NCBI GenBank assembly: GCA_000004985.1
Contig: GG738865.1
DNA length: 64,000 nt
Source: Naegleria gruberi
Taxonomy: Eukaryota
Reading direction: 5' to 3' (one strand)
Shown: positions 13,305 to 42,676 of the stretch, one piece after another
How positions within the stretch are numbered: position 1 is the stretch's first letter
How the letters are laid out: each line of letters starts with the position of its first letter
Position numbers and translations under genes: made by a program
The notes under the pieces: generated by a model
What the model saw: the letters and a program-made list of their open reading frames with translations, nothing else
What the model was told of the DNA's origin: nothing
Database searches by the model: none

Positions 13305-15976
13305 ATGTCTCTACAATTTGGCAGCACCTTGCTGTTTGCTGTTCTGATCATCTTTCTCACCTACTACAATCAATCTCGTTTGCCATCAAATTTACCAGTG
13401 CCAAACAGTATTGGTGCACCTGTTGATTATTTATTTAGAGAGGATCGAGCATTGAAAACTCTCGGCATTCTCTCCACTACTATCGGACCAAAAGTTGTTG
13501 GTACTCTGCAAGAGAAACAAGCTTTTGAATTTGTTAGAGATGAATTGAGTACGATTGTACATAGTGAATGGAAAATGAAATTGGAAAATTGTGATGAGAT
13601 GAATGTGAATGTTAATGGTCAGGATGAAGAGTTTGGATTAAAGAGGTTTATTAGAAAGGAGGGAAATATTAATAGTATGAAAATCAAGAGATGTCAACTT
13701 GTTGGGAATAATCATAAGATTACCCTTGATCAACAATTTATTTCTGGTATGTGTATTTATTTGGTTTGTGGTCAATTATAATTAATTGATCAGGTGATGG
13801 ATACATTGATATTTTGAAGAGAAAACTGTTTACTTCCTACCAAAATTTGACTAATTTAATTGTTAGAATTGATCCAAATCAAGATAGATCGGATAATCAT
13901 GGTTTATTGGTGTCAAGCCACTTTGACAGTGGTGTGTCTTCACCTGGATTCTATGATGATGGTATTCCTGTTGTTTGTATGATTGAATCATTTAGAAATA
14001 TTGTGAAAATGATTAGAGATGGAAAGTTAGAATTGAAAAGAAGTGTTATTTTCTTGTTTAATGGTGCTGAAGAAACTGGACTATTGGGAGCTGAATCATT
14101 CATGTATCATCCATATTCTAGGGATGTAAAATACTTTTTAAATTTAGAGGCTGCAGGATCTGGTGGAAAAGAGGTTGCTTTCCAAATAGCTACAGAATTC
14201 TTGGCTAGACATTTCGCCAAGTCAACAGTGAGGGCTAGTGGAAATGTCATAGCTCAAGATATTTTCCAATCAAATATTATTCCATCAGCAACTGATTATC
14301 ATGTATATTCTTCATTTGGAATGCAAGGAATTGATGTTTCATTCTACAAGAATGGTTATGTTTATCATACATCAAAGGATTCTTCATCTTCTTATGAAAA
14401 GGGATCTATTCAGCATATGGGTGATAATGTCCAATCATTTGTAACCCACTTCTCAAATATCACTGAAAATGACTCTGATCCAAAGACAAACTTTGTCTAT
14501 TTTGATCTTTTTGGATTCAATATGAATGTTTTTGACATCAATACTCTCAGACTGATTAACGTTTCAGTCATTGTAATATCTATTACTCTGTTAATTATTC
14601 CATTGATCAAAGGAGGTGCCGTAGCCTTGTACCATAGAGTGTTGGCCTTATTTTTAATATTCCTCTTTTTACTATTTGCTATTGGAATTAATATTACTTT
14701 AACAATTGGATTAATGAGATTGGGATACGATATGCTCTATTTTGCCTATCACCCAATGTTCTCTTTGGTTCTTTATGGATCAGTAGTAGTGACAACCTTC
14801 ACTCTTGGTTTTTGGACAACCAACAAGTTTATCATTGCCTTATCCACTGAAATCATGGCAGAATCAATTCTAATTCTCTACACTTGTATTTTGACACTTT
14901 TCACAATTTTCAACATTGCTTCTGGATATCTTTTCTTGGCTGTCACAATATTCTTATTATTGGGCACTTATTTCAACAAGGTTTACCTTGATTTTTCCTT
15001 GATAGGATTGGCATTTTTGAGTCCTATTTTGAACCAAGTTATTGACATGTTTATTCCAATTACTGGAAGACTTGGAAAGGCCGTTCAAGTTGATTATATT
15101 GCCCTTATGTTGTGTAGCATTGCTGTATTCTTAATATTGACAACATTGTTACCAGTTCTTGTTAGACAAATCTCTGGAAAAACTGTTTTACTATTAATTT
15201 TGGGAACTATCATCACCTATGCATATCTTATTTTGGGTAATAATGGCAAAGCATTTACCGAGGCACATCCAAAGAGAACTTCTATACAACATACCTTCTT
15301 AATGGCAAGTAATAATTTGAATGATTGGGAGCAGCTCTCTCAATATATTATGATTGCAGGAGCAGATTCATCTAAGGAGGAGGAAATAACTGATGTGTTG
15401 GGCAAGAGATTTAATTTTGAAAGAAGTCATGACACTTTAGAACCACAAGTTGTCAGAAGTGTAATTAATCCAAGAACTCACAAGAAGCCATATCTTATTA
15501 CCGAAACTACAGATAGTTTACCACGTTATATTACCCCTAAAATTTTCATTACAAACAAGGTCCATGAAAAAGGAAGAATTGAGTTTAGTATCCTCTTCCA
15601 TGAAAAGATTTATCATAGTGGAATATTCCTCTATTCAGATCATGAGATTGTAGAGTCATCATTCGATACCAATACATCATTCGGAAGAGTTGTTCAAACA
15701 AATACTGATTCTCAATATGAGTTTGAATATAACTTTTGGGCATTATTTGGATACAATAGAGATAGCTCTTTAATGAACCAAAATCAAAAATCTTTCAAGT
15801 TTTGGATTGAGTTCAAGCAAAATCCACAAAAAGATTTCAAATTGCGAGTTACACTCAAGAATACCTTCCTCGCAAATACATATTCTCTTGCAGAGTTGGA
15901 GACAGAGTTAGAGTCACTCCCTTGGTCTGAACATATTTCTACAACCCATTCTGTCATGGATTTCCAAATTAATTAG
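13305..15976 (+). CDS. ERMP1/FXNA-like endoplasmic-reticulum M28 metallopeptidase with a multi-pass membrane domain, in 2 exons.
   Basis: Model join(13305..13746, 13794..15976), 47-nt intron (GTATGT..CAG, phase 1). The protein reads ...TLDQQFISG|GDGYIDILKRKLFTSYQNLTNLIVRIDPNQDRSDNHGLLVSSHFDSGVSSPGFYDDGIPVVCMIESFRNIVKMI...VIFLFNGAEETGLLGAESFMYHPY..., the M28 zinc-ligand context (HFDS, DDG, NGAEE). At least 8 hydrophobic segments follow, as in ERMP1. Confidence 0.85.
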
Positions 15977-20576: not shown

Positions 20577-21824
20577 TTAATTCCCCTTGATGAAATTCCG
20601 AGTGGTAGATTTGGCAGCAATTATTGTCTTTGTTTTTAGGGTGAAATTATCTGGTCGATAGGCAAGGAACGCATGTCTAAGATCTATGAGATTTTCACTA
20701 GGAGAAATAATAGGTTGACCTTCAAGTTTGATATCTGGAAATGTGAATTGACATTCCACATTATATGACTCATCATTATCTTCTTCAGATGGTTTTGATT
20801 TTAATTTTAGGATGCCAGACACAATAATAGATGAAGTGTTGAGCGGAATATTATTCACTTTGCATTCTCCCTTATCTATGGATGTTTGAGATATTTCCTG
20901 ATTGTTTGAATCAAGGAATTTGAATGAAACATTCTTAAACCATGATGAAATTCTATTTCCATTCTTTTCTGATCTGAATTGGCAATCAAACGAAAGCTCT
21001 TCTTGTTGTTTTTGAATAGAGAGCAGATAAGATTTTGAGGCAACATAGGTCGGTATCTGATATCCTAATCCATTCATTAACCTCTCCATAAATTCATCTG
21101 TTTTCATATTGATTTTCACATCTGCATAAATATCCTTTGGTGTGGTTTGTAAATTTACAATTATTAATTTTCCCTTATGTCCGTAAGTGTTGAATTTACA
21201 CAATTGTGGCAAATCGCAAATTGGCAATACCTTCAAGCTAGTTCCAAGAACAATTGCCACATCTGCCAATTTCGAATGTTCCAAAGCCCTTTCGAACCAC
21301 TTCTGATCCAGTGGATCGTTAAAATTGACAATAGTATCAAACAATTCCTTTCCACACTTATTGCAAAATCTTCCAGTTGTATGCTCATGCACTTCCTTAT
21401 TATTTCTAACTGAATAATCTCTAACATATTCAATTTCACATTCTTTACAAATTTCAATATTTGTATTTCCATGAATTTCACTCATACAATCTCTTGAAAT
21501 TCCAGATTCCAAATGAAGTCCATCAACATTTTGTGAAGTGAGATATTTCAACTTTTTTTGTTTGTACAATTCTGATATTGCCATGTGACATTTTGTTGGA
21601 AACTTGATGAAAGGAACAGATTTGACTGGTTCCTTCCCTTGCTTCAACATGGTCCAAATTCCCTTCGGACCTCTATAATCAATTATACCACTCTCCGTAG
21701 AAATACCAGCCCCCGTATAAATAACCAAATGTTTAGAATCCTTCACATAGTCAATGACCCATTTGATCTTTTCTTCAATCTCCTCGGCAGAGTCAAAATA
21801 TTCAGTACAATCTTCTTGTTCCAT
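20577..21824 (-). CDS. NAD-dependent protein deacylase of the Sir2 family, class IV (SIRT6/SIRT7-like), with a C-terminal extension.
   Basis: ATG at 21824. The protein has KHLVIYTGAGISTESGIIDYRGPKGIWT (Rossmann GAGIS..G.PDFR motif), TQNVDGLHLESGI, the zinc ribbon CKECEIEY...CNKCG, and LIIVNLQTTPKD. The GAGISTESGIIDYRGPKGIWTM and LIIVNLQTTPKD motifs point to class IV rather than class I. Confidence 0.85.
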   Translation of the reverse strand: MEQEDCTEYFDSAEEIEEKIKWVIDYVKDSKHLVIYTGAGISTESGIIDYRGPKGIWTMLKQGKEPVKSVPFIKFPTKCHMAISELYKQKKLKYLTSQNVDGLHLESGISRDCMSEIHGNTNIEICKECEIEYVRDYSVRNNKEVHEHTTGRFCNKCGKELFDTIVNFNDPLDQKWFERALEHSKLADVAIVLGTSLKVLPICDLPQLCKFNTYGHKGKLIIVNLQTTPKDIYADVKINMKTDEFMERLMNGLGYQIPTYVASKSYLLSIQKQQEELSFDCQFRSEKNGNRISSWFKNVSFKFLDSNNQEISQTSIDKGECKVNNIPLNTSSIIVSGILKLKSKPSEEDNDESYNVECQFTFPDIKLEGQPIISPSENLIDLRHAFLAYRPDNFTLKTKTIIAAKSTTRNFIKGN

Positions 21825-24249: not shown

Positions 24250-26184
24250 ATGACATTTCGTAATCTTTCAAGTGACGAAGTTAATTTCATGATTTATAGA
24301 TATCTTCAGGAATCTGGCTTTAAACACAGCGCCTTTTCTTTTGCTAGTGAAAGTAATGTACAATCGTGTGGTATTAGAGGAGCAGAAGTTCCACCAGGAG
24401 CCTTGATTTCCTTCCTTCAAAAAGGTATACAATACCTTGAAGTTGAAACTAAACTACGAAACAAGAGTGATCAACAAGTACAATTTGATACTGTATTTGA
24501 AATGCTTTTACCAGATGTACCTAAAGAAAAGTTACTCTTTACCAGAGGTACACCACCAGGTGTAACTACATCAATTGCTATGGCAGGTACTATTTCAGAT
24601 CATCCTTCATCATCCACAAATAATTCTAGATCCACTACTATACAATCCTCTACTACTACTCAACAAGCTTCTACCTCTAAAACAACAAGCGGAAGCTTAA
24701 AGGAAACCAATTCTTCATCAAATTCTTCCAATCCAACAAATCCTAATAACACAACCACTACAGCTTCTACTACTTCTACTACTAATACCACACAACGACG
24801 AAAGAATTCATCCAGCGAAAAAGCCAATGTTAGAACAAGTTCTAATGCTAATGGTAATAGCGGAACCAATTCTTCTGGACGTCCATCAAAGAAACAAAAA
24901 CAAAATACTACAACACCTGCAACTACAAGTAGTACTGCTGTTACTACTAGTGGAACATCATTGGCCAGTAATGGTTCACACAATAGTTTGGCAACTCATG
25001 ATGAAGAGAGTGCTGCCGTTATGGTTATTGATGAAGGACATTTGTATCATTCTGAAGCCAATACTAGTACAATAATACCTGATAGTCTTGTTACTAAACT
25101 GAAAGGACACACTCATGAAGTTTTTATTTGTGCTTGGAATCCTGCTCGTAGCAATGTTTTGGCATCAGGATCTGGTGATTCCACTGCTAGGATTTGGGAA
25201 TTGGTTAAAGATGAAGTTGGTCCTAGGGCAGCTCCTCTTCATCCACTTGTTTTAAATCACGGAGATAATACAGCTACAGGAGAGCTTCAAGCTTCAACTA
25301 AGGATGTCACAACTCTTGATTGGAGTGGAGATGGTAAAAGGCTTGCAACTGGTTCATATGATGGTAAAGCTAGGATTTGGTCTGAAGATGGTAGACTCAG
25401 ATGTATTTTGGATCAACACAAGGGTCCAATCTTTTCACTTAAATGGAATAAGGCAGGAAATTATCTTTTATCTGGTTCAGTTGACAATACTTCAATTGTA
25501 TGGGATGTTGAAAATAATCAAGTTAAACAACAATTTGCTCATCACTCTGCACCAACATTGGATGTTGATTGGAGAACTAACACCTCTTTTGCTACATGCT
25601 CAACTGATAGAATGATTTATGTTTATGAATTGGGTACAAGTAACCCAACCAGAACATTTTCTGGACACGAAGATGAAGTCAATGCTATTCGATGGAGTCC
25701 AAATGGTAAACTTTTGGCTTCATGTTCTGATGACTTTACAGCCAAGATTTGGTCCTATGATAGTCAAAAATGTGTCTGGGACTTTAAGGAACACACAAAG
25801 GAAATTTACACAATCAAATGGAGTCCAACAGGTCCTGGAACTGATTATCCTAATAAGAATACAGTTTTGGCAAGTGCTTCATTTGATGCTTCTATCAAGT
25901 TGTGGGATCCTATTGCCGGAAAATGTTTACATTCACTCACAAAACATACTGATCCTGTATATTCTGTAGCTTTCAGCCCTGATGGTAAATATTTAGCAAG
26001 TGGGTCCTTTGATCGTTATTTGCACATTTGGTCAGTTCATGATGGTAAATTAGTAAGGACATATCATGGAAGTGGTAGTATTTTTGAAGTTTGTTGGAAT
26101 GCAACTGGTGATAAGGTTGCTGCTTGTTTCTCGAACTCTATAACGGAGGAATTTAATGTTTGTGTTCTCGATTTTCGTATGTAA
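24250..26184 (+). CDS. TBL1/TBLR1 (Ebi)-like corepressor subunit with LisH, an S/T/N-rich linker and a WD40 beta-propeller.
   Basis: ATG at 24250. The N-terminus [61 protein letters not shown] is near-identical in pattern to the TBL1 LisH/F-box-like region. The C-terminus has at least 7 WD repeats (e.g. [28 protein letters not shown] ... [31 protein letters not shown]). Confidence 0.85.
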   Translation: [644 protein letters not shown]

Positions 26185-26313
26185 TCGTTTGAATAAATCC
26201 ATGTTTTCTATTAAGGTATTTTGTTTAAAATTGTAAACTTTTCCAATGTGTACTGTTACGAATAAAAGGTATTTGTAAAATGTTATTGATCTAATTGACC
26301 AATAAAATGTTGT

Positions 26314-28783
26314 TTATTCAATGTCATAACAATCAAGTCCGCGTGCCTGACATCTACAACATGGTCTCACATTTGTACACCGCAAATGTGATCTTCTACA
26401 ATGATGGCAAGCTCTTTTAGCATTGCTTCTGCGTTTCTTTTTCAGTTTTCCTTTCTTGGAAATTCCACCACCTACAGGAGGCATGTAATCATCATCTTCC
26501 TGTGAATCACTACTGCTTCTATCACTATCTCGGGAAGATTGTTTTTTCTTTGATTTTTTCACAAGCGATGGAGAGAAGGATGAAGAATCTGTGTTTGAAA
26601 GAGATCCTGATAAATCGTATGGGTTATCATTGGAATTACTGTTGGAATTTGGTGATTCTGAGGTAGGTCTATAGTACACTTCTGGTATGTAGTTTTGATA
26701 ACAGTTATTGTAATATTTCAAATGTGGTTCATATTCATCTTCTTCTTCAGAGAGTAGAAAAACAAAATCACTCTCGCTATCTTCGTCATCACTTTGTTCT
26801 TCTAGTTCTAGTTTTTGTTCTAGAGATTGCATTTTGATACCTAGAGGGCTATAATCTTGTTCTTCTTCAACACCGTACTTATTCAAGAAGATTTCAATCT
26901 TATTCTTTAAAAGTGTTATGGAGTCTTCTGGAGAAAATGATTCTACCAATGAGTAGTCAAATAACATTGTGGAATACTTGTTATCATTGAGAATTAACCC
27001 GTTATTAATCATTGAGGTTAAAACACCATAAGCATCAACTCTTCTTCCACTGAATCAAATTGTTATTCCACCTAATATTGTGTGCTATACTTACACAAAT
27101 AAATATAATAAGAATTGGATTTCATCAAAGTGTACAAGTATTTCTTTCAAATCACCATTTTTCATCTTCATTTCTTCATCTTCCATGATGTCAAAGTGAT
27201 TATTTGTCATTAATGCAGGATCATAGTATGGGAAATGTTGTAATAAATAAATTCTTGCTCTCTTCATTTCATAATCATGAACAAGTTCGTAAAATACACT
27301 TCTCTTGAACCTATTATTTTGTTGTTATTGTGGTCAACACTCTTGCAAGTACTTACTCTGAAATTTTCCATTGATAAGGATTCTCTTTTTCTGGGTTTGT
27401 TTTTTCATCATTTAGATCAACTGTTGATGTACTAGGGCTATCTTTGTGAGTAACTGAATTGGTGGTATTAAAAGTATTATAGGAAAAAGTAGGGGAGGAA
27501 TGTAATGAAATATTTGAAGGATCATTAGAATCAACCTTTGGATTAGGGATATGGTGGTTATTGGTTGAAGGAGCAATGGTTTGTTGTTGATTATATTCGG
27601 AATTGGTCATTATTTGATTGGGCGAACATGATTGATTAATCGGAATAGTATAATTAGAGGAAAGCACTGATCCATTATTGTTTGATGTACAATTAGCAGC
27701 ACTTGTCATGGCATTATTTTGATTCAAATGATGGGAAGTTAAACCAGTATTATTATTGTAGTGGTGATCATTAGCCATCAAACTTTCGTTACTTGTTACA
27801 GATGGTTTGAGTGACAAGGTTGGATGAATTTGGTGATGATACAGATTAAAGTTTGTGGTCTGACTATTGGTATTTGAGCTAACCAAATTACTGCTATTGT
27901 GTAAATGATTATTGTTAACTGAATTATTACCACTATTAGTGTTACTTCCAATATGGGATTGGACAACGGATGAGTTATAAAAAGGTTGTGAAGTTGGCCA
28001 GGATGATTGATTGTAATTATAACTAGGGTTTGGAGCTTCATTCTTTGAAAATCCTTGTTGTTCAGCAGCGGCCATATTACTTGTGGCAGGTGAAGAATTG
28101 ATTGACAGTGTTTGTGTAGTAGAATAGGAGGATAATGATCTATTGATCACAGAGTTCATCGGATCTGAAGTATTTAATGATTGTTGCTGATCAGTATGAG
28201 CAAAATGGTGAGGAGAGGATATTGGTGCAGCTTGCTGTGGAGAGGAGGAGGAAACAATTTGTTGTTGTTGACTTGTTGAACCATTCAATCCCGATGAAGG
28301 ATTCAAGCAATGATAAACATTACTATTGTTCAATTGTTGGTGATTAGATACAGACAACGCGCTACTATTATTTGAAGAATTAGAGTTATTGTTTTTTAAA
28401 GATCCTCCATTAATTAGAGTTGGAATTGTAGCGCTGCTTCTTGTATTATTACCATTATTAACTACTGAATATTGTTGTTGATTAGACTCCGATACAGAAC
28501 TGATTCCGTAGAGTTGTTGTGATTGGTTTATAATATGGTGATGATGATGATGGTTTGTATTGGTAAAAGTTTGATTCATCACCCCGACACCTCCAACAGG
28601 AGTTATATTATTATGGTCAATATTATTACTATGATTACTATGGTTCATCATTGAATTAATGTTATGATAGCTCGGACTTGAATTATCAAGTGGCTGAACA
28701 ACGGTCGTCATCAGAGAATTACCAGGAAGTTGTGGTGAAGATGTTGTTGCTCCGAGAATAGCTCCACTATAGTCGTGAGACAT
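26314..28783 (-). CDS. Zn2Cys6 (GAL4-type binuclear cluster) protein with a 475-aa N/Q/H/S-rich N-terminal region, a conserved central block and the zinc cluster at the extreme C-terminus, in 3 exons.
   Basis: Model complement(join(26314..27049, 27095..27310, 27357..28783)), introns 46 and 45 nt (both GTAAGT..AG, phase 2), about 792 aa. The C-terminal ACHHCRRSHLRCTNVRPCCRCQARGLDC has the exact C-X2-C-X6-C-X5-C-X2-C-X6-C spacing. The central exon reads EFKRSVFYELVHDYEMKRARIYLLQHFPYYDPALMTNNHFDIMEDEEMK... The track splits it into 27353..28783 and 26314..27012. Confidence 0.65.
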
Positions 28784-28957: not shown

Positions 28958-31900
28958 TTAATCATACATTTCTTCAATTTCTTTAACAATTTCTTCAAAA
29001 TCAACAATTGTGATTTTTTGAACAGGTCCAATTCTTCTTTTTGTTTTTTGTTGGGTTAATGTACTTGTTCTGTCTCGAGTTAAAATTTCATCTTCTGCGT
29101 GCTCATCAATAGCTACAAGTGTTACCTTATTAGCATTAGACCTGTTGTTGGATCTTCCATTTCCAAGATTTTCAGGAGCTAACTGTAGAATCTTTACACC
29201 AGTTAACCTGGTAACTGAAGATGATGAAGGAGCACTCAATTGTTCCAAAGCAATATCAGCTGCATTCTTCTTCTTGGCATTACCACCCTTCTTCTTCAAT
29301 GATAAATCATCTAGCAAGTCTATTGGTGGTCTCTTATCCAGGGCTTTATCTACAGTAGACTTTACTTGATGGAAATCAAAGAACTTTCCACGTACTTCCT
29401 CTTCATTAACCTTTCTGCCTTCCATAATGTAGGTGCGACTGGTCTTGGCGATTTGTATCAATTCTTTCTCATCCTTATTTTCACAATGCACACATGCCAC
29501 TTGTTTAATACCGATGCAATTTACATGGAATGCATGACCGCAAGGGAATATTCTACACATACTTGATTCTTCCATGGTTTTCTTACCTAGTGGGTTTCCA
29601 CAAAGGAAGCAGTATAAACTGTTAGGCTTTAGGGCACTATTCAAATCTCTGTGTAGTTGATTTCCAATATTGAAAATGTCATAAGAAATTAGTTCATTGG
29701 ATTGCTTTAACAATCCACTTTCGTAGCTATAATTATCTAATAATCTCATAATTGTTACCTTAACATTACCGAATGCATCACTATCGTGCTCAGTAACAAT
29801 ATCATTCAAGATTGATGGAATATCCACATATCTCATCATCTCACTAAGTATTATTCTAATATACAATGAATTACATCTTTGTAACCAAAGATTAGCCAAT
29901 TTTTGAATGTTGTGAGGAGCTGTTGGATCATTATTTCGTTCTTCTTCGAGTTGTTTTTCTAATTTTTCCTTTTCTTCCAAACTCTTCAATTGCATTTGGA
30001 GATTATGAATGTGATCCTTTTTCTTTTTTAATTTAATTTGGAGTCTTTCGATTCTTTCCTCATCTGGGTCATGCAACTCTCTCTCAGCATTCAAGTCTTT
30101 CTCAATCTTGATAATTTCAGTGTTTGTATCGACAATTTCTTCCTTGATGATATCAAATTCATCAAGTTGGGTATCCTCCAAATCGAACTCATCAAAACCT
30201 TCACTGTCAACAATTTTCTTTTGAAAAACTGAAGATTCCTCTCTCTTACTAACACTCAGAGGTTTTCCTTCTAAAAATCCATATCTCAACTTTCTTTGAA
30301 GTAAAACAAAGGTATTCAACAATCTGAACCATAATTGTCTAACTTCACTATCATCCAGAGTTTTTCTTTCACTGTTTTCGCAGCACAAGTTAATAGCAGT
30401 CTTGAGTTCTTTTACCAGATTTCTGGATTCATGACAAGTTAGCACATCAGTAAGTTCTGCTTTTTCTCCAGCATCATAACCTTCCTTCAAAGTTACTTTA
30501 GGGAGTTTGATTTTTGGTTTTTGTTGTAAAACCTTCATTTGTTCGATAATTGGTTCATTTGGACAATAAACAGGTGGGTCATCTGTGATCAAGTTGAAAT
30601 CCTTACTAATCTCATCAAAGTTCTTCTCAAAAGCAGCATTTCTTTTTCTGGAAACTTCATCAATTAACTTTAATTTCAGAAGGTCAACAGTGTGTTCTAA
30701 TTCTCTCAAAATTTCATTCAATGCATGTTTGACTTCTCCAGTTCTTTCGAGAAGGAAAGATTTTGCTTCTGGAACATCCTTACATATTTTCATACATTTA
30801 TCAACATCAAGGCCGGATCCTTGTTGTTGTAAATACTCCTTAACTTTCTTATTGTCTTCAAAGTCGCAAACCATTTGCAAGTATGTGTAGGTTAACTCTT
30901 CCACAGAGATACCCCTTTTAGCAACTTCATTCATATTCAAAGAACCATTCTCAGAAGTTGGATCCAATAATAAGGAAGTAATATAACAATAGAAGAAAAA
31001 TCTTAGAGTTCTATATCGTTCTGGATCCCTTTCTTCGTCAAGTAATTTTTGTATTGTCATGACTACGTGTTGATGGCAAGCATTAGAAAACGACAAGTCA
31101 ACAACCAAAGTTTCGGCAAGCTCTGGAATTTGAGACCAAGTAATCTCGAACAATCTCTTTAAATTGACTTCAAGATACCACTGATATTTTTGGGTGCTAG
31201 ACATGAAAAACTTGGCAAGTTTGTAAAGATCAAATCTTTTTGCAAGTTCCATGAATTTGGTCTTATCATAATAGGTTTTTCTCTTTTCAAGGATTTCAAT
31301 AAATCTTTCTTCTCTATCCTCTCTGAGGGACAAAATTCTTTGTTTTTCTTTATCGTCAGTGCAATTCCTAAGTCTTCTCAAAATATCTTCTGAAAGGAAG
31401 GTAAAGATTACAAGAAGGATATTATAGTCTTCAGCTTTAAGTATACCCTTTGCTAAAAACTTAGCATAGAAAGAGAAGAAAGCAATTCTTCCATCATAGA
31501 AACTTGGATGTTTCATAAATTGATGGGGCAGTTGGAGTCTCAAAATGTATTCAATAAGGTTTTCTTGGGTAAAGTCTTCATCCCATGGATTAGTGGCTGA
31601 ATCATCATTCATTGCTATTTCAAGAACATCAAATAGCTTTTCAGGATAGTGCCTGACAATGGAGTGGAAGGCTGATGTTGGATCTCTGTCACCATCCTCT
31701 TCCTCATCAAATATAAAATCGACAACATCCTTCTTGATATCAGTAACCAAATCCTCATGTTCTGGAACATTACCAACTAGGTATCTCTCAAAGAAGTAGA
31801 GAATTACTTCTGCAACTTCTCTTTCACGGCTTTCTCCATATTCTTCAAGTATTCTTTCAAGAGGTTCTACATATTCTCTTTGGTAAATATTAGTAACATG

Positions 31901-34001
31901 TACATAAGTTTTCAGAAGTGAACATTCTCTGCAAAATTGAATAATCTTATCATACATATTATATTGTTGAAGATCCAATCTCATAATCAATGTATCAAGT
32001 CTTTCTTGTTGAGTCTTGAAATTTGAAATGAAGCCTTGGAAAATTGGCCATGGAATACTCTTTAATGCTCCAGACAGAATAAATGGTTCTAACAATTCCA
32101 AGAAAATCTGTGTCTTTCCACATTCTTCAAATGTAGTATGGACTGCACTAAAAACTACATCTTCTCTTCCAACTTTCATACAATTGTCAATACATGTTGA
32201 TCCAACAAGCTTATAAATATAGTCATCCTTATATTCTGAACCTGTAAGGCTCAATCGTAAATACTCAGTTACAAGTCCAACTGTTTTTGCGGCTAAAATA
32301 TCCAATGCTGCATCGGCAGGAAGTCCAAACACACATTTTCCTTTTCCAGTATAAAATTCGTGAGTGAGTTCCAGAGCTTCTTTCCACAGTCCAGCATCTG
32401 ATAATTGATAAATTCTCTCCTCCCAAGGTTTGATAGAAATCTTTACCAAACCATGTTCTCCGAGAACAACAAATCCTCTTGAATTGATATCATAACTGGA
32501 GTGTTTGGATCCTTGCATAGCATAATGGTCCAATGGGTTTGTAAATGTGATATCTTCCGTTTCAATTACTGATGTATCATCAACCCTTACATCAAATAAT
32601 AAAACTTCTTGGTCAGCAGTCATGACAACAAGACTTTTTTCATCAAACCATCCCAAACCACAAACATCAGATGTTAATTCAGAATTGAAAATAATATCCT
32701 TTTTTCCATCTTTAGATATATCTATTATGTGCACATCTTTCCCATATGCAAATGCCACAATACCAGTCTTTGAGTTTGAACTGGAATTTGCCAAAGCAAG
32801 ATAAGGCAATAACCCTTTTCCATAGAGAGGATATCCAAACGAGACAGGATCTCCATCAGGTACAAGAGTTTTTCCCATCGAATAGAGTAACAACTTTCCA
32901 CTTCTTGTACCTACTGCAAGATAAGATTTGGAAGAATCCTTTGGAATGACTGCAAACGTAATGATTGGGTCATCACCAACAGACATTTGAAACATTAAAC
33001 TGTAACTATATCTGAAAAGAACCTTAGAAAGAGCAAAACATTTAAGAGTACTCTATTAACAATGTAAGAAATAATCATTAACACTAATACATACAGAAAA
33101 CAACTCGGAGGCAATAATTGAATACATATCAGTAAGGAAAGCAACATTTACAACAGGTGAAGTAAAAGCATCGTCTATTCTCTTGATAACGCTTGCCTTA
33201 AGAACATCCCAAACAATAATAACACCCTTTTCGTAACCGGCTACTAACCAATCCTCTTGGAATGAAAAGCTTAGTGATGAAACCTTTCCTGTCGATACAT
33301 TTTCCACTCCTGTTGTGTTTCCGAGAATACATTTCAACTCTTGGTCGTCAGAGCTGAATATTAAAATTAAGCCACGATCTGTTCCAAAGGCTGTGTACTT
33401 CTTTGAAACTCTTATCGATACCACTTTTCCTACCTTAGCGTTAACCGAAGGTTTGTATATTTCTGTGCTCATCGCCTTTAATTTCTCGTTTTTAAGAATA
33501 CTCTTTGTTATGTCCTTCTTACTTTTATCATCCTATTTCAAGTATATTTTGATGGAATTCGGAGAGTTGAAAACTTACTATTGATTTGGAAACGGTACTC
33601 GTTTCATTTGCTGATGAATGGATATCTAATTCCTCAAGAAAATCATCCAACTCTTTTCCTAAACTTAATTCATCTGTAAAAATTGGTTCGGTAAGGATTC
33701 TTTGTAGAGTTTGATTACTTTTATCTTCATCCTTTTGATCCATTTTCATCATGGCTATTTGCTTTTCCAACTCTTCGATTTGATCCAATTGTTCAACTTC
33801 ACCATGTTCCTTATTATTCTGCAAGTTGAAGGTAATTTTAGTACCTGTTCCAAGATGATACTCAGAATCGTTATCAGACAAATCATCGAGGGTGTCATCT
33901 TGCCCTCCCAATTCATCAGAGTCCAAGTCGAGACTCAATTCTTCTTCATCAGAGTCGTTATATTTTGCCCCCTTGAGTTGTTGTTGTCGCTCCTTAGACA
34001 T
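28958..34001 (-). CDS. Vps8-type large HOPS/CORVET-family subunit: N-terminal acidic region and WD40 propeller, alpha-solenoid, and a C-terminal RING-H2 finger, in 3 exons. Vps8 is inferred from size.
   Basis: Model complement(join(28958..33022, 33095..33532, 33579..34001)), introns 72 and 46 nt, both phase 0, about 1641 aa. The track ORFs 33528..34001, 33056..33472 and 28958..32995 are one gene. The C-terminal CFLCGNPLGKK...CRIFPCGHAFHVNCIGIKQVACVHCENKDEK is a RING-H2 finger. Only the roughly 1400-1600 aa length separates Vps8 from the shorter RING-containing paralogues Vps11/18/41. Confidence 0.75.
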
Positions 34002-34045: not shown

Positions 34046-35492
34046 TTATTCACCTTCAGGATCGACCACTTCCTCACTTGCAGCAGATTCTTCACCATCC
34101 TGTTCAGTGCCGTTAGAGAGACTTTGTTTTCTCTCTTCCAAATTCTGCTCTTCAATTTGTTTTCTTTTGGCTTCTTCTCTTTTCCTTAATTCACGTCTTC
34201 TCCTCTCCATTTCTTTTGATTCGGCATCGACAATGTCTGTAAACTTTTCTCGATACTCTGTAATTTGCTTAATCTTTAAATTATAAAATGAGAAACATTG
34301 CTTGAATAGTATGGAGTGATCGTACAGTCTTCTAGTACTGTGATTCAAATAGTGCAATACTTCTCCCATGTGTAATCTTTGTTCAAGTGCAGTGTCATGC
34401 AATTTGAGATATGACATTGCTACTCTGAAAAGTATTTTTGTTCCTTCACTGAAAACTAAATCTAAAACTCTCATCGATGTCTCAATAGGGAAAACCTCAA
34501 TAAATAATCTCATGAACCATCCACTGGCAAATGCCGTTGTCTCTACTCCAAATTTATGTAAATGAGCATGAAGTTTTGGTAATCTTTCCTTGATTAGTTC
34601 GTCCAAAACATAAGAATCCACTCTCATACCAGTAAGTTCTGGATTATAATAATTTGCTGGTAAAATGTCTTCGAGTAAGGTTACTAAGAGCCAAAAAGCT
34701 TCTTCCTCTCCACAGTGCAATAATAAACTTCCGACAATATAGTTCAAACTCTGGCAATAGCTTACGTAAGGGTTTCTCCAACTGAATGCTGTCAATACAT
34801 TCTTCATTTGTGATCTTCCTATTGAGTGACTATTACAGAAAAATGGATGTGAAGGGAAAGTTCTACACAAATCCAAGTCTATCTGAGCTTCATTCGGACA
34901 TGTTTGACCCTTGTGAACTGTTTGATTTAAATTAAAAAGAACTTTAAATATTTACCTTCGAGAATCTTCTTGTAATATCCTCTGTTTTCCTTCATTTTCT
35001 TATCCACTCCCGTTATTTGAATCCAAACATGTCTTCTATACCAAGATGGAATTGAATGTTTTCTTACCAGTGCCTTGACTGTTTTCCTTGCAGAGTCCGA
35101 TTTTAACAATTTTCCTTGAATTCCACCACATTCATCAATATAATGTTTCCACGCTTTTGAACTTTCTTCATAGACTTTTTCTCTTTTTGATTTAATCCAT
35201 TGTGTATAGGCTTGATAAACTTCAGGATCATCATTTGATTGAGGTTCAGGAAATCCATAATTTACAATTGAACACCACTGATAATTAATTTGTAATTCAT
35301 CGGTGTCGTTCAACAATTTTAATCCATCCTCATGAATAGTATCATCTAAAAAGTTTCATCAAAAAAAGTAGATTTATCACCCCCGTCATCATTTTAATAT
35401 TTCATCAAACAAATATATAAAAACATACGATCTTCCTCTTCGGTTAGGTTATGATTGATAGGCCCTTTTGATTTGAATGGATTGAGAGGCAT
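34046..35492 (-). CDS. TBC-domain Rab GTPase-activating protein, in 3 exons.
   Basis: Model complement(join(34046..34917, 34956..35345, 35429..35492)), introns 38 and 83 nt, both phase 1, about 441 aa. The Arg-finger region IPSWYRRHVWIQITG (IxxDxxR type), LDLCRTFPSHPFF (RTFP motif) and the Gln-finger YVSYCQSLNYIVGSLLL (YxQ motif) are all present. The track ORF 34927..35316 begins at a TTG, not the true start. Confidence 0.8.
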
Positions 35493-35832: not shown

Positions 35833-36924
35833 CTAAAAATCCTTAATTCCCTTCTCATTGCTGCCGTCACCATTCCTCAGATACATCATGACTGCAACAA
35901 ACAAAAGAATATTATGAGCATGTTTAACATCCACACAATTAATTTCCAAATACAAACTTCCATTACTTTTAAAAGCAATTAATTGAGCTCTCTTTCTTTG
36001 AATAATTCGTTCATAATCTGGAACTAGATCCGTTTTGTTTCCAATTAGTATACTTTCCACCTTTTCAGTTCCTTTGATATCATTAATATCATTCTCGGCT
36101 CTATCCAATGATTCTAAACGATTCAAATCAAACATTATCAAAGCAGTATTTGCATTCCTCTTGTATAAAGATGTATAAAAATAAGCAGGTTGATCCCATA
36201 ATTGCAAATCTCTAAGGATACCATCCCAAAGTTTGTAAATTTTGAATGTGTGTGCTGATGACACTACTCCAGGAGTGTAATCTCCAATTGATAAACTGTC
36301 AAGAGAGCTTTTCACAAAGCTCGTTTTTCCTACATGATGGTCACCCGTCATGATACATTTGAAAATTTTCTTATTGAACTCTAGGTTGTTTGAGGTGGAT
36401 ACAGAACTAGTGCTGGATGATAATAATCTCGACGAAAAATAAGAAAATAAATTGAATAAACTATTGGGAGATTCCTTTTTTGGTTCATCTTTTGGTTGTT
36501 CAATTTTTTTTGAAAGTATGTCAAAATAATATTCCACCAATTTCATTTCATCAAGAAACCAATTGGTTCTCTTTGGTTCGAATTTTTCCCATTCAAATCT
36601 TTGTCTTTCCCTTTTTTTAAATTCACTTCCTTCAAGAAATTCCACACATAATCCATAAATATGTTCCCTTAGCTTTAATTTTAGAAAATGGGTGAATAAT
36701 TTGTGTTCATTACAACTTTGAATATCTAACGAAGAATAGTTAATATTAGATAAAAATTCTGTAAATTGTTTGTAAATCTCCCGAAACGATAATTCTCTCC
36801 AGGATTCACAAACTCTTCCAATAGTGAAATATTGTTCTGGAATTGAAAAGAAATGATAAATCTCCAACAATAATTCTTCGGGAAGATTATTGATCGTGGC
36901 AACAATTTGTTGATTTTCTTTCAT
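35833..36924 (-). CDS. F-box-like N-terminal domain fused to a divergent Rab/Ras-like small GTPase domain.
   Basis: First ATG at 36924; the track start 36954 is TTG. The N-terminus NLPEELLLEIYHFFSIPEQYFTIGRVCESWRELSF fits the F-box pattern. The C-terminal half has the P-loop KCIMTGDHHVGKTSFV (GxxxxGK[ST]), a switch II-like LWDQPAYF and the guanine-specificity motif LIGNKTDL (NKxD). Confidence 0.65.
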   Translation of the reverse strand: MKENQQIVATINNLPEELLLEIYHFFSIPEQYFTIGRVCESWRELSFREIYKQFTEFLSNINYSSLDIQSCNEHKLFTHFLKLKLREHIYGLCVEFLEGSEFKKRERQRFEWEKFEPKRTNWFLDEMKLVEYYFDILSKKIEQPKDEPKKESPNSLFNLFSYFSSRLLSSSTSSVSTSNNLEFNKKIFKCIMTGDHHVGKTSFVKSSLDSLSIGDYTPGVVSSAHTFKIYKLWDGILRDLQLWDQPAYFYTSLYKRNANTALIMFDLNRLESLDRAENDINDIKGTEKVESILIGNKTDLVPDYERIIQRKRAQLIAFKSNGSLYLEINCVDVKHAHNILLFVAVMMYLRNGDGSNEKGIKDF

Positions 36925-36994
36925 TTTTCTTTCTTCAAAAAAAGCCAATTTCAAATTACAAAATTTGAGAATAATTTTATTGAAATAACAGAGT

Positions 36995-40030: not shown

Positions 40031-42205
40031 TTACAAGTTCTTGTTACTCAATTCTAATGTGATTAAACCTCTAGCATAGGATACCCAGTAGATTCTATTC
40101 TTACTTTCAATGTAGAGGAATTCCTTCTTTGATTTGGCTAAGAAATTGTTGGCTATCACTCTCATACGAGTTTCCTTGGTTTGTTCAATGGCTTTAGTTC
40201 CAAGAATTGAGGCAGGTTTAGATTTAACAGTATTTGGATTCAAACTCTTTCTCTTTGATGAAATTGGTTGTGGAACAGAGAATTCATCATCGTCACTACT
40301 AACAACTTCAACATAGAAATCATCCAAAAGACCCTTATTTTCAGTAGTGAGGGTTGAGGTACTATCTCCAACATTGGTTCCATTATTTCTTACAGGAACT
40401 TCGCTAGTAACTCTTCTGTGAGCATTGGATAATCCTCCACCTGGTGAATTGGCAGGAATGTTTGGATTATTTTCAATATTGTTTGGACCAAACTTTTCTG
40501 GAACTTGAGTGAAATGTTCAACAATGGTAACATGTTCTGGATCCTTTTCATCTCTCATAATCTTAATAGAGTGATTGTAATCTGACAAGTTGAAATACTT
40601 CTTGTTGAATTGAATTCTGGTTACAGCTGGTTCTGCAGTTTCAATAAGTCTGAATTCCTTCTTGAAAGAGCTGATATCCTTTACAACGAGGACATTTTCA
40701 ACCAATTGAGGGAATTCCATTGATAATCTTCTAGAAGCACCCAACATTCCATATGTTGAGAACAATGAAGAGACATCATTTGGATTTAATTTTGGTTTCT
40801 CCTCAGCATTTGAAATATCTAAAAGTGATGGATCAACTCCAATGAAATTCATCATGTTTGCTTTTTCATTATTTTTGACATCAACTTGTGGATGAATGAC
40901 AAATTGGAGACGAAGTGGGCCAGTTTTTTGTTGTGGTCTATTGCTTTGAGTATTCATATTAGAAACCATATTCGAAAGTGAACTAAAGAAAGTATTGGAA
41001 TCATAACTCTTTCTCTTGGTCAATGGTTCACTATCAGCATCATCAGCAGAACTTGATCCTTGTCCAGAAACTCCACTAGATTGTTGAGAGGGAACATATT
41101 GATATGGTTTCTTCTTCTTTCCAATATATTCATTATTTGTGGTATTGTTATCATCCATATAAATTTCAATAACACCATTTCTGACAAAGCATTCCTTATC
41201 AACAATGTGACGATCAAACCAAACACCACTCATATACAATGAGCATGGTCTTCTGAGTGGATCCTTATCAAAGAATATCAAACAACGTTGATTAGAACGA
41301 TTGGTACGATCTTGGAAGCAATCTGAAACATATAATTGATCTCCAACAATATTATACAATTGATCAGAAACATCAAGCATAAAGTAATCAGATTCCTTGA
41401 TTATCTTTTGTGCAAACAATTGCAAGTCATGGAATCCATATTCAGGAGCATCTAATTCAGAACTTCTGTACTCTGCAGAGTCAAATAAATTCAACTCTCC
41501 ACTCTTCAAATATTCCAAGATGAGAGCAAAGTACTTTGGATTTCTATCAATAAAGTAGCATCCATTTTCATCCTTGATAAAACCCAAATGCTGATTTTCG
41601 TCCAACAATCTGGTAAAATAGTTTTCAAAGACTGTTGTTGAAGTGGACGAAACATTACTTAGTCTATTATTGTTTTGATTTGATGAAGAAGTAGTTCCTT
41701 CAGAAAAGCTCATTCTACTCTTACGATTGTGCAAATCAACAAAAGTTGAAAGTGAATTATAAGCCAAATTATTAGAATTGGTCAAATCACCACTACTTCC
41801 AGTACCACTATTACCTGCTGTTGTTGTTGTTGTTGGTGTAGAACCTTGAGGAGAGTTATTATTTGTTGTGGTTGTATTAGAAAGTGGTTGTTTTTGATGA
41901 GTTGTCTCCTGATGATTCAAGTAATTCTTCATGGCCAATTGGTAGGCTGTTGGAGAACGAATCTTTTGAGAGAAGGGCAAGCAATTGCCTGGAAAAACCA
42001 ACTCATTAATATTCGACTGATTAGCATTATTCTTATAAATTGCACTATGATGATATGAATTGAGAATAGTCTCACGAGTTGTATAGAGAATTTTACCTCC
42101 CACATTAAATTTGATCAATTGATGATAATGTGGAACTGGTGATGAAGAAGAACCACTACTACCACCACCTGACATTTGTTGTTGCTGTGCTTGCAGAGGA
42201 ATCAT
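40031..42205 (-). CDS. KCTD-like protein whose T1-type BTB/POZ domain is split by a roughly 170-aa low-complexity insertion, with a long C-terminal region.
   Basis: The track start at 42232 is TTG; the first ATG (MIPLQAQQQQ...) is at about 42205. The protein has LIKFNVGGKILYTTRETIL (T1/BTB beta1-beta2), then T/N/S-rich filler, then GCYFIDRNPKYFALILEYLKSGELNL (BTB alpha-helical part). Confidence 0.6.
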   Translation of the reverse strand: MIPLQAQQQQMSGGGSSGSSSSPVPHYHQLIKFNVGGKILYTTRETILNSYHHSAIYKNNANQSNINELVFPGNCLPFSQKIRSPTAYQLAMKNYLNHQETTHQKQPLSNTTTTNNNSPQGSTPTTTTTAGNSGTGSSGDLTNSNNLAYNSLSTFVDLHNRKSRMSFSEGTTSSSNQNNNRLSNVSSTSTTVFENYFTRLLDENQHLGFIKDENGCYFIDRNPKYFALILEYLKSGELNLFDSAEYRSSELDAPEYGFHDLQLFAQKIIKESDYFMLDVSDQLYNIVGDQLYVSDCFQDRTNRSNQRCLIFFDKDPLRRPCSLYMSGVWFDRHIVDKECFVRNGVIEIYMDDNNTTNNEYIGKKKKPYQYVPSQQSSGVSGQGSSSADDADSEPLTKRKSYDSNTFFSSLSNMVSNMNTQSNRPQQKTGPLRLQFVIHPQVDVKNNEKANMMNFIGVDPSLLDISNAEEKPKLNPNDVSSLFSTYGMLGASRRLSMEFPQLVENVLVVKDISSFKKEFRLIETAEPAVTRIQFNKKYFNLSDYNHSIKIMRDEKDPEHVTIVEHFTQVPEKFGPNNIENNPNIPANSPGGGLSNAHRRVTSEVPVRNNGTNVGDSTSTLTTENKGLLDDFYVEVVSSDDDEFSVPQPISSKRKSLNPNTVKSKPASILGTKAIEQTKETRMRVIANNFLAKSKKEFLYIESKNRIYWVSYARGLITLELSNKNL

Positions 42206-42676
42206 AATTTCCCAAAAGTTTAAATGTATCAAAACAACTGTAAATCAAAGAAGGCTTTCAACTTTTTTTAAATTTTTAAGAAAATAAAATTTGGATTGTT
42301 GCTGCTTGGAAAGGAGATGATGGATCACAACTAAAATTGACGAGAGAACCCATCACTGCCTATTGTTCTTTATTGTCACTTGAATGATATCTGGAGAAGG
42401 ATTGCATCCAAGTAAATTTACTGGGAGATGGGAACGCAGATAACAAATTGGTTCACTTAATCTTGGAGAGGAAAGTTGACCTCAATAATTGATATTTTGA
42501 ATCTGGTTTTTTTTTTCAAATGTGTCAACTGAGATGCATTCAAAGTTCATTGACCTGGCTTGAATGAGGAGAATATTCTGATATTCATTTCAATATTACA
42601 ATATTACAAAAATAGTTAATAAAGAATATTCACTTTTCCAAATTCAATCAATTTGATGAAAAATTAATTTAAAAAA

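What the first reader, a model, noticed from the sequence alone, without database searches (positions are those of the whole stretch)
26314..28783. Fungal-type Zn2Cys6 binuclear-cluster domain on a poly-N/Q protein in a non-fungal genome
The last 30 residues ACHHCRRSHLRCTNVRPCCRCQARGLDC reproduce exactly the GAL4-type C-X2-C-X6-C-X5-C-X2-C-X6-C spacing. This DNA-binding domain is overwhelmingly fungal, with only scattered occurrences in amoebozoans and other protists. Here it sits at the C-terminus (in fungi it is usually N-terminal). It follows a 475-aa N/Q/H/S-rich region and a conserved central block spanning two exons (EFKRSVFYELVHDYEMKRARIYLLQHFPYYDPALMTNNHFDIMEDEEMK...). The three-exon structure is missed by the ORF track. 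This is a candidate lineage-specific transcription factor.
Basis: partly seen in the sequence, partly recalled or inferred. Interest (0 to 1): 0.55.

Follow-up and report, generated by a model that had tools for sequence, protein, structure and literature searches.

The report
Annotated Naegleria Zn2Cys6 (GAL4-type) protein
This is a real three-exon gene of the amoeboflagellate Naegleria gruberi whose protein ends in a GAL4-type zinc-cluster DNA-binding domain, but the gene is already annotated under that name and dozens of such "fungal" domains have already been reported in Naegleria.

Summary
On the minus strand, 28783..26314, three exons joined at two GTAAGT...AG introns (46 and 45 nt) encode 792 aa. 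The protein ends in C-X2-C-X6-C-X5-C-X2-C-X6-C plus YDIE.

The spliced protein is identical, residue for residue, to RefSeq XP_002677808.1 / UniProt D2VDV9, [quoted passage not shown]. The window is therefore N. gruberi reference sequence, and the gene model and domain call have been public since the genome release. Scazzocchio (2014) already reported 71 Zn-cluster proteins in N. gruberi, with non-fungal architectures.

What I add:
- The family is confined to the Naegleria/Willaertia clade. Orthologues are in N. fowleri, W. magna and one metagenome contig, all with both introns at the same positions.
- The last 50 residues (basic arm plus cluster) are about 85% identical across orthologues, against 39-49% overall.
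- The closest solved relative is S. pombe Pho7, a monomeric Zn2Cys6 DNA binder.

Verdict: a genuine but already catalogued lineage-specific putative transcription factor. Interest is low to moderate.

The parts
26314..28783 (-). Whole gene (start codon to stop codon), 3 exons, 792 aa. Equals N. gruberi NEG-M XP_002677808.1 / EFC45064.1 / D2VDV9 'GAL4 domain-containing protein'.
   Evidence: Spliced translation is identical to P0128.
27357..28783 (-). Exon 1. Encodes the N-terminal S/N/T/Q/H-rich low-complexity region (aa 1-466, 27386-28783) and the first residues of the conserved block. Only one short island (DSPSTSTVD, 27416-27442) is conserved among the Naegleria-type orthologues.
   Evidence: The region is barely alignable between orthologues.
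27311..27356 (-). Intron 1, 46 nt, GTAAGT...AG.
   Evidence: The same position in the protein (…E|FK/NR/K…) is an intron in N. fowleri, L002 and W. magna.
27095..27310 (-). Exon 2, 216 nt. Encodes the first half of the helical central domain.
27050..27094 (-). Intron 2, 45 nt, GTAAGT...AG.
   Evidence: The position (…Y/F-V/T|GRK/R…) is conserved in N. fowleri, L002 and W. magna.
26314..27049 (-). Exon 3. Encodes the second half of the helical domain, the acidic linker, the basic arm, the Zn2Cys6 cluster and the stop codon.
   Evidence: This exon alone was called as a 232-aa ORF (P0001) on a metagenome contig.
26794..27385 (-). Central conserved all-alpha domain (aa 467-633; the span includes both introns). 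Its predicted fold resembles LisH-CTLH-CRA modules. Inferred dimerisation or partner-binding module.
26671..26724 (-). Conserved motif HLKYYNNCYQNYIPEVYY (aa 657-674), inside a region predicted to be disordered and preceded by an acidic stretch (26725-26793). Candidate short linear interaction motif.
   Evidence: YYNNCYQN and IP are invariant in 4 orthologues. pLDDT <50.
26479..26538 (-). Conserved Ser/Asp/Glu-rich stretch SSRDSDRSSSDSQEDDDYMP (aa 719-738). Possible phospho-regulated acidic element (inference only).
26410..26457 (-). Basic arm KKGKLKKKRRSNAKRA (aa 746-761), almost invariant. Inferred nuclear localisation signal and DNA minor-groove/phosphate contacts, by alignment with the N-terminal arm of the Pho7 DNA-binding domain.
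26329..26409 (-). Zn2Cys6 binuclear-cluster motif CHHCRRSHLRCTNVRPCCRCQARGLDC (aa 762-788). It is followed only by YDIE and the stop codon (26314-26328).
   Evidence: All six Cys, the Pro before Cys4, and the Arg/Asp pair equivalent to Pho7 R306/D320 are invariant in the orthologues.

Best explanation
The locus is the annotated Naegleria gruberi gene for a 792-aa nuclear, sequence-specific DNA-binding regulator. It belongs to the Zn2Cys6 (GAL4-type) class, which is expanded in this genome.

Proposed working, with shown and inferred steps marked:
1. Shown: the last 27 residues before the YDIE tail carry the six-cysteine signature. They match the Zn_clus profile and the solved Pho7 DNA-binding domain. 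Inferred: they fold around two Zn(II) ions and place the first short helix (CRRSHLRC) in the DNA major groove.
2. Shown: the 16-residue basic arm just upstream is almost invariant among orthologues and aligns with the Pho7 N-terminal arm, including the equivalents of Lys282, Lys283 and Arg284. Inferred: it acts as a nuclear localisation signal and lies along the minor groove and phosphates.
3. Shown: the protein stops 4 residues after Cys6, so it lacks the linker and coiled-coil that dimerise Gal4-type factors, and also the C-terminal arm of Pho7. Inferred: each cluster recognises a single half-site, and any pairing comes from elsewhere in the protein.
4. Shown on a predicted model: the central helical domain (aa 467-633) has a CTLH-CRA/TOPLESS-domain-like fold. 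Inferred: it supplies homo-oligomerisation or partner binding.
5. Inferred: the fast-evolving 466-aa S/N/Q/H-rich N-terminus acts as a disordered activation or condensation region. The conserved YYNNCYQNYIPE and SDSQEDDDY elements are docking or regulatory motifs.

The residues at the base-contacting positions differ from both reference structures (Gal4 Lys18 / Pho7 Asn299 -> His; Pho7 Lys300 -> Leu). The target sequence therefore cannot be read off from Gal4 or Pho7.
Confidence: 0.75

Rival explanations
1. The C-terminal cysteine module is not a DNA-binding domain but a protein-interaction or E3-type zinc module. This follows the analogy with MAEA/Fyv10 and RMND5/Gid2 of the CTLH/GID ubiquitin ligase, which combine LisH-CTLH-CRA with a C-terminal RING-like zinc domain. 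The protein would then be a scaffold or ligase subunit rather than a transcription factor.
Against: The cysteine stretch spans only 27 residues with six Cys. That is too short and has too few ligands for a RING cross-brace. Pfam reports only Zn_clus for this protein at E<=1, with no RING family. Sequence similarity is to Zn2Cys6 DNA-binding domains (Pho7 E 2e-6, Gal4, Put3, Lac9, Cep3). The invariant lysine/arginine arm in front of it fits DNA binding. No sequence similarity to any CTLH-complex subunit was found.
Confidence: 0.06
2. The cysteine pattern is a chance match, or an artefact of joining an unrelated downstream ORF to the N/Q-rich ORF, so that no such protein exists.
For: The full-length Pfam score is marginally below the gathering threshold.
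Against: There were 0 such patterns in 50 shuffles of the window. All six Cys and the flanks are invariant in four orthologues from three named species plus a metagenome contig. Both introns have canonical sites, restore the frame and are positionally conserved. Independent annotations of N. gruberi, N. fowleri and W. magna all join the exons the same way.
Confidence: 0.01
3. This rival concerns origin and is orthogonal to function. The Zn2Cys6 domain reached the heterolobosean lineage by ancient horizontal transfer from a fungus or fungus-like donor and was then shuffled onto local proteins, rather than being inherited from the last eukaryotic common ancestor. A trivial variant is that the sequence is fungal contamination.
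For: Both scenarios are raised and left open in the literature (Scazzocchio 2014; Shelest 2017). The nearest solved relative is fungal (Pho7). The rest of the protein has no relatives outside Naegleria/Willaertia, consistent with a domain grafted onto a lineage-specific protein.
Against: Contamination is excluded. The gene sits on an 820-kb N. gruberi scaffold between Naegleria genes. It has Naegleria-type short introns. Its orthologues in N. fowleri and W. magna share the intron positions, and in W. magna also the neighbouring gene. For ancient transfer versus vertical descent, a ~30-residue domain carries too little signal, and I ran no phylogeny.
Confidence: 0.35

Closest known systems
The ~71 Zn2Cys6 (PF00172) proteins already recorded in Naegleria gruberi (Scazzocchio 2014, PMC5611559). 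This very protein is XP_002677808.1/D2VDV9.
   Same: Same organism, same domain, and non-fungal architectures. The protein here is one of that set.
   Different: Nothing differs in kind. The review gives no per-protein analysis. The orthologue set, the intron conservation and the fold of the central block are additions made here.
Schizosaccharomyces pombe Pho7 DNA-binding domain (PDB 6o19, 6e33)
   Same: It is the best sequence match among solved structures (E 2e-6). The cluster spacing is identical. It shares the KK.R...AKRAC basic arm with equivalents of Lys282, Lys283, Arg284 and Arg290, and it shares the Arg306-Asp320 fold-stabilising pair. Pho7 binds DNA as a monomer without a coiled coil.
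   Different: Pho7's cluster is internal and is followed by a C-terminal arm (aa 323-336) that reads the minor groove; here the protein ends 2 residues after the Asp. The base-contact residues differ (Asn299 -> His, Lys300 -> Leu). There is no similarity outside the DNA-binding domain.
Saccharomyces cerevisiae Gal4 / Put3 / K. lactis Lac9 (classical Zn2Cys6 homodimers; PDB 1d66, 1zme, 1cld)
   Same: The six-Cys signature, the Pro before Cys4 and the basic residues between Cys2 and Cys3.
   Different: Those clusters are N-terminal and are followed by a linker and a coiled-coil dimerisation element. Many such fungal factors carry a Fungal_trans middle-homology region. None of these features is present here. 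Gal4 Lys18 is His here.
Saccharomyces cerevisiae Ume6 (recalled from my own knowledge, not tested here)
   Same: A fungal Zn2Cys6 factor whose cluster lies near the C-terminus of a long, largely disordered protein. A C-terminal position is therefore unusual but not unprecedented.
   Different: No sequence relationship beyond the cluster was tested or found. Ume6 does not end immediately after the cluster.
LisH-CTLH-CRA modules: TOPLESS/TPR2 N-terminal domain, Wdr47 NTD, MAEA, Twa1/GID8, muskelin, SMU1
   Different: Identity is only 7-14% and no LisH/CTLH/CRA profile matches. Foldseek E-values are not significant. None of those proteins carries a Zn2Cys6 domain.

Membership tests
Zn2Cys6 binuclear cluster (Pfam Zn_clus PF00172; GAL4-like) | Six cysteines spaced C-X2-C-X6-C-X5-12-C-X2-C-X6-8-C | tested here: met
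   CHHCRRSHLRCTNVRPCCRCQARGLDC at 26329-26409 (minus strand). It is unique in the window, with 0 in 50 shuffles. It is invariant in 4 orthologues.
Zn2Cys6 binuclear cluster (Pfam Zn_clus PF00172; GAL4-like) | Profile-HMM score at or above the curated gathering threshold (21 bits) | tested here: met
   The isolated C-terminal 47 aa score 25.8 bits, E 1.1e-5. The full-length protein scores 20.0 bits, E 7.5e-4, 1 bit under the cut-off. Orthologues carry precomputed PF00172 hits (weak in N. fowleri). Borderline but consistent.
Zn2Cys6 binuclear cluster (Pfam Zn_clus PF00172; GAL4-like) | Family-typical non-Cys residues: Pro before Cys4, basic residues between Cys2 and Cys3, and the Arg/Asp pair that stabilises the fold in Pho7 | tested here: met
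   Alignment to Pho7 read against the structure description: RP-C4 is present, CRRSHLRC is basic, and R(NVRPC)/D(CYD) correspond to R306/D320. The Gal4 Lys18-equivalent position is His.
Zn2Cys6 binuclear cluster (Pfam Zn_clus PF00172; GAL4-like) | Coordinates two Zn(II) ions through the six cysteines | not testable with these tools
   Needs metal analysis of recombinant protein. The AF2 model has no metal and a pLDDT of only 55-70 there.
Zn2Cys6 binuclear cluster (Pfam Zn_clus PF00172; GAL4-like) | Sequence-specific DNA binding, classically to CGG triplets | not testable with these tools
   No binding data exist for this protein.
Classical Gal4-class fungal zinc-cluster factors (a sub-type, not the whole family) | Linker plus coiled-coil dimerisation element directly C-terminal to the cluster | tested here: not met
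   The protein ends with YDIE, 4 residues after Cys6, in all orthologues (+Q in N. fowleri).
Classical Gal4-class fungal zinc-cluster factors (a sub-type, not the whole family) | Fungal_trans / middle-homology region | tested here: not met
   Zn_clus is the only Pfam family at E<=1 on the full protein. The central block of 4 orthologues gives no relevant Pfam family at E<=10.
LisH-CTLH-CRA domain proteins | Match to LisH, CTLH or CRA sequence profiles | tested here: not met
   No such Pfam hit at E<=10. A profile search against PDB sequences found no CTLH protein. The exhaustive profile search found only the orthologues.
LisH-CTLH-CRA domain proteins | The characteristic helical fold | tested here: met
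LisH-CTLH-CRA domain proteins | Homo- or hetero-oligomerisation through the module | not testable with these tools
   Needs SEC-MALS, two-hybrid assays or a multimer prediction.
RING-type zinc domains of MAEA/RMND5-like CTLH ligase subunits | Eight-ligand cross-brace of about 40-60 residues, and a RING profile match | tested here: not met
   There are only six Cys within 27 residues. No RING family was reported at E<=1 for this protein.

The most novel reading that the evidence does not exclude
In the Naegleria/Willaertia lineage, a Zn2Cys6 DNA-binding cluster was fused to the C-terminal end of a lineage-specific protein. That protein's CTLH-CRA/TOPLESS-domain-like helical module replaces the fungal coiled coil as the oligomerisation (or co-repressor-like peptide-binding) device. 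To my knowledge this architecture has not been described for any zinc-cluster factor. It would show that the 'fungal' domain was redeployed independently in Heterolobosea.
Probability: 0.4. Interest if true: 0.45.

Novelty: already known. Interest (0 to 1): 0.25.

Why it matters
The headline claim, a fungal-type Zn2Cys6 domain in a non-fungal genome, is true. It has been public since the N. gruberi genome annotation and was discussed explicitly in 2014, so it does not change what is known.

The residual value is modest:
- A specific, well-delimited orthologue family (N. gruberi, N. fowleri, W. magna) with an ultra-conserved 50-residue DNA-binding tail. This is a convenient first target for asking what Naegleria zinc-cluster proteins bind.
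- A possible CTLH-CRA-like partner domain.

Because N. fowleri is a lethal pathogen whose transcription factors are essentially unstudied, a tractable DNA-binding domain shared with the harmless N. gruberi has some practical appeal.

Tried and rejected
1. An exact-product look-up of the neighbouring 644-aa ORF and of the N. gruberi proteins P0004 and P0128 found no genomic record. The N. gruberi assembly seems not to be indexed there. Identity was established through the cluster-member table instead.
2. A word-index search with the alignment of the last 50 residues (A6) returned nothing at E<=1, not even the known orthologues. No list of nearest Zn-cluster relatives, and hence no phylogeny, could be made. 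That search was wasted.
3. The AlphaFold-database fold library was unavailable.
4. Sequence-level tests of the central block against Pfam (E<=10) and against PDB sequences gave only noise: Scm3, pRha, ribosomal S15.
5. The fungal middle-homology-region idea was rejected because there is no Pfam hit.
6. The N. fowleri and N. lovaniensis loci around the LisH-WD40 orthologue were scanned for the gene. It is not adjacent there. In N. fowleri it lies about 18 kb away on the same contig (LisH-WD40 gene near record position 805-807 kb; Zn gene near 838-841 kb). The conserved adjacency seen in N. gruberi, W. magna and L002 is therefore not universal, and I attach no functional meaning to it.
7. No tandem DNA repeats underlie the low-complexity N-terminus.
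8. A literature search for the accessions of this protein found no paper.
I replaced it with the deposited fragment P0002.
Full report
1. WHAT IS IN THE SEQUENCE

The window is 32-39% G+C with densely packed ORFs on both strands. On the minus strand between 28783 and 26314 there are three open stretches. They join at two canonical short introns:
- 27311-27356: GTAAGT...AATAG, 46 nt.
- 27050-27094: GTAAGT...TTCAG, 45 nt.

Joined, they form one in-frame CDS of 2379 nt, encoding 792 aa.

The protein ends ...KKGKLKKKRRSNAKRA-CHHCRRSHLRCTNVRPCCRCQARGLDC-YDIE*. The spacing is C-X2-C-X6-C-X5-C-X2-C-X6-C (window 26329-26409). A six-frame regular-expression scan finds this as the only such motif in the 64 kb, and none in 50 shuffles.

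Pfam Zn_clus (PF00172) matches profile positions 1-31 of 39:
- C-terminal 47 residues alone: 25.8 bits, E 1.1e-5 (gathering cut-off 21).
- Full-length protein: 20.0 bits, E 7.5e-4, a shade under the cut-off.

No other Pfam family appears at E<=1. The first 466 residues are S 19%, N 18%, T 9%, Q 7%, H 6%. No DNA tandem repeats underlie them.

2. WHOSE GENOME, AND IS THE GENE KNOWN

The conserved C-terminal 330 residues find only three proteins in the 5.8-billion-sequence collection:
- an identical exon-3 ORF on a metagenome contig,
- a 57%-identical fragment on another metagenome contig (L002),
- a 574-aa hypothetical protein of Willaertia magna (45%).

The neighbouring LisH-WD40 (TBL1/HOS15-like) ORF at 24250-26184 (+) is identical to a Naegleria gruberi predicted protein except for one 55-residue stretch that the annotation removes (reported as 89% identity). 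Identity is 66% to N. fowleri and N. lovaniensis and 62% to W. magna.

The cluster-member table then shows that the 232-aa fragment belongs to the cluster of EFC45064.1 / XP_002677808.1 / UniProt D2VDV9, [quoted passage not shown]. That protein is 792 aa and lies on an 820,293-bp scaffold. My spliced translation is identical to it over all 792 residues.

The window is therefore N. gruberi NEG-M reference sequence. The three-exon model and the GAL4-domain call are the public annotation. The "ORF track" missed the structure only because it lists prokaryote-style ORFs.

The wider phenomenon is also published. [quoted passage not shown] Shelest (2017, PMC5415576) states that the patchy non-fungal distribution of Zn clusters had already been discussed by several authors. 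No paper in the library names this particular protein.

3. THE FAMILY

A profile of the central block without the zinc cluster was run exhaustively with HMMER against 1.84 billion cluster representatives. It returned only four proteins:
- the W. magna protein (E 3e-140),
- a 915-aa N. fowleri protein (E 8e-102; FDP41_010642 / XP_044568290.1, named by UniProt "Zn(2)-C6 fungal-type domain-containing protein"),
- two N. gruberi fragments.

The family is thus confined to the Naegleria/Willaertia clade and has no detectable paralogues or remote relatives. Acrasis kona gave no hit.

Both introns lie at the same places in the protein in N. gruberi, N. fowleri (89 and 88 nt), the metagenome contig L002 and W. 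magna, which has a third intron further upstream.

In a full-length alignment the orthologues are 39-49% identical overall. The N-terminal low-complexity region is barely alignable except for a DSPSTSTVD island. The last 50 residues are 84-86% identical, with 40 of 50 invariant. Other conserved elements are:
- a YYNNCYQN(Y/F)IP(E/D)xYY motif (aa 657-674),
- an acidic F/ILSExE stretch,
- SSxDSQEDxDY(M/F)P (aa 719-738),
- a lysine run.

The strongest constraint is on the basic arm plus cluster. This is what one expects of a DNA-binding surface.

4. THE ZINC CLUSTER COMPARED WITH SOLVED STRUCTURES

phmmer of the last 50 residues against all PDB sequences gives:
- S. pombe Pho7 DNA-binding domain (6o19, 6e33): E 2e-6 and 3e-6.
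- Cep3/CBF3, Gal4, Put3, Lac9: E 0.06-0.7.

Pho7 is unusual among zinc-cluster factors. It binds as a monomer. Its zinc module sits in the major groove over TCG(G), and extended N- and C-terminal arms lie in the minor groove (PMC6265462).

In the HMMER alignment the arm GKLKKKRRSNAKRAC lines up with Pho7 GKVK-KRLPQAKRAC. This conserves the equivalents of Lys282 and Lys283 (phosphate contacts), Arg284 (penetrates the minor groove) and Arg290. The Arg306-Asp320 salt bridge that stabilises the Pho7 fold corresponds to the invariant R of NVRPC and D of CYDIE.

Two differences matter:
- The protein stops two residues after that Asp. It has neither Pho7's C-terminal arm nor the linker and coiled-coil of Gal4-type dimers.
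- The base-reading positions differ (Pho7 Asn299 / Gal4 Lys18 -> His; Pho7 Lys300 -> Leu). The target sequence cannot be inferred.

AF2 confidence in this segment is only 55-70, so I rely on the sequence evidence.

5. THE CENTRAL BLOCK

No Pfam family of that kind, or any other, matches it.

AlphaFold2 on the 337-residue C-terminal part gives three regions:
- a confident all-alpha domain,
- about 120 disordered residues, which include the conserved YYNN motif, suggesting a linear motif,
- the zinc cluster.

The domain alone (aa 467-633) gives pLDDT 81.8 and pTM 0.79 from a four-sequence alignment.

- Wdr47: 10.3.
- MAEA: 9.6.
- Twa1/GID8: 9.5.
- muskelin: 9.0.
- SMU1: 8.7.
- Gid7: 8.1.

Generic helical bundles score <=7.1. 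The TRF2 TRFH domain (8.1) is the one outsider in that range. Foldseek agrees on ranking: the top 20-23 hits are all TOPLESS/TPR2, with probability up to 0.99 and TM about 0.5. Its E-values (0.04-0.9) are not significant. A profile search against PDB sequences finds nothing.

I therefore call the block CTLH-CRA-like in fold and not a member of that family. Such modules are dimerisation/oligomerisation and peptide-binding devices. That offers a plausible substitute for the missing coiled coil. This step is inference.

6. MECHANISM AND RIVALS

Best reading (confidence 0.75): a nuclear Zn2Cys6 transcription regulator. Its C-terminal cluster and basic arm bind DNA. Its central helical domain pairs molecules or recruits partners. 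Its long S/N/Q/H-rich N-terminus acts as a disordered effector region.

Rivals:
- A non-DNA-binding zinc module in a CTLH-ligase-like scaffold. The domain order recalls MAEA/RMND5, but the module is too short for a RING, matches only Zn2Cys6 domains, and is preceded by a DNA-binding-type basic arm. Confidence 0.06.
- Chance or mis-splicing. Excluded by the shuffles, the orthologue conservation and three independent annotations. Confidence 0.01.
- Fungal contamination. Excluded by scaffold context, intron structure and orthologues.
- Ancient horizontal versus vertical origin of the domain. This remains open and untested here.

7. VERDICT

The finding is real and correctly described. The gene is already annotated as a GAL4-domain protein, and the presence of many such domains in N. 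gruberi is in the literature. Novelty: already known.

The additions from this work are:
- the clade-restricted orthologue set,
- the conserved introns,
- the Pho7-like basic arm,
- the absence of any dimerisation element after the cluster,
- the CTLH-CRA-like fold of the central block.

These are incremental and partly speculative. Interest 0.25.

Noticed in passing
window 24250-26184 (+): A LisH-WD40 (TBL1/HOS15/SIF2-like) gene is convergent with the Zn2Cys6 gene; their stop codons are 130 bp apart. The uninterrupted 644-aa ORF differs from the deposited N. gruberi protein (589 aa) only by a 55-residue S/T-rich stretch (after aa 93) that the annotation removes as an intron, although the frame stays open. 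One of the two models may be wrong.
   Followed up: partly
window 24250-28783; L003 10001-13695; L002 8725-12533; L004, L006, L007: The Zn2Cys6 gene and the LisH-WD40 gene are convergent neighbours in N. gruberi and W. magna. In metagenome contig L002 one extra ORF lies between them. They are not adjacent in N. fowleri or N. lovaniensis, where a UAA-transporter gene follows the WD40 gene. In N. fowleri the Zn gene lies about 18 kb away on the same contig. TBL1-type proteins are co-repressor subunits, but I treat the adjacency as synteny, not function.
   Followed up: partly
L001 (ENA ERZ929261, run ERR1078381, PRJEB11402), equals window 24261-28212: An environmental metagenome contig is 98.5% identical in DNA to this stretch of the N. 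gruberi reference. A very close N. gruberi-type amoeba was therefore present in that sample.
   Followed up: no
L002 (ENA ERZ27315067, contig k141_335116, 13.7 kb, 39.7% G+C): An unidentified Naegleria-like organism carries a full orthologue (666 aa after I removed the two introns). It is 41% identical to N. gruberi and 49% to N. fowleri. Prokaryote-style gene calling split it into separate ORFs.
   Followed up: partly
window 28958-32995 (-): A Vps8-like ORF of 1345 aa (Vps8 central TPR, weak RING-like C-terminus) ends only 175 bp upstream of the Zn2Cys6 start codon. The promoter and 5' UTR of the Zn gene and the 3' end of the Vps8-like gene must share that short interval.
   Followed up: no
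window 35833-36954 (-): An ORF combines an N-terminal F-box with a C-terminal Ras/Roc-type small GTPase domain, an uncommon pairing.
   Followed up: no
window 20577-21824 (-), 13814-15976 (+), 34046-34876 (-), 40031-42232 (-): Ordinary eukaryotic neighbours: a SIR2-family deacetylase, an M28 peptidase, a TBC RabGAP and a BTB-domain protein. No tRNA genes occur in the 64 kb.
   Followed up: no
protein aa 657-674 (window 26671-26724, minus strand): The motif YYNNCYQN(Y/F)IP(E/D)xYY is invariant across four orthologues yet lies in a segment predicted to be disordered (pLDDT <50). It has no counterpart that I could find and no assigned role.
   Followed up: no
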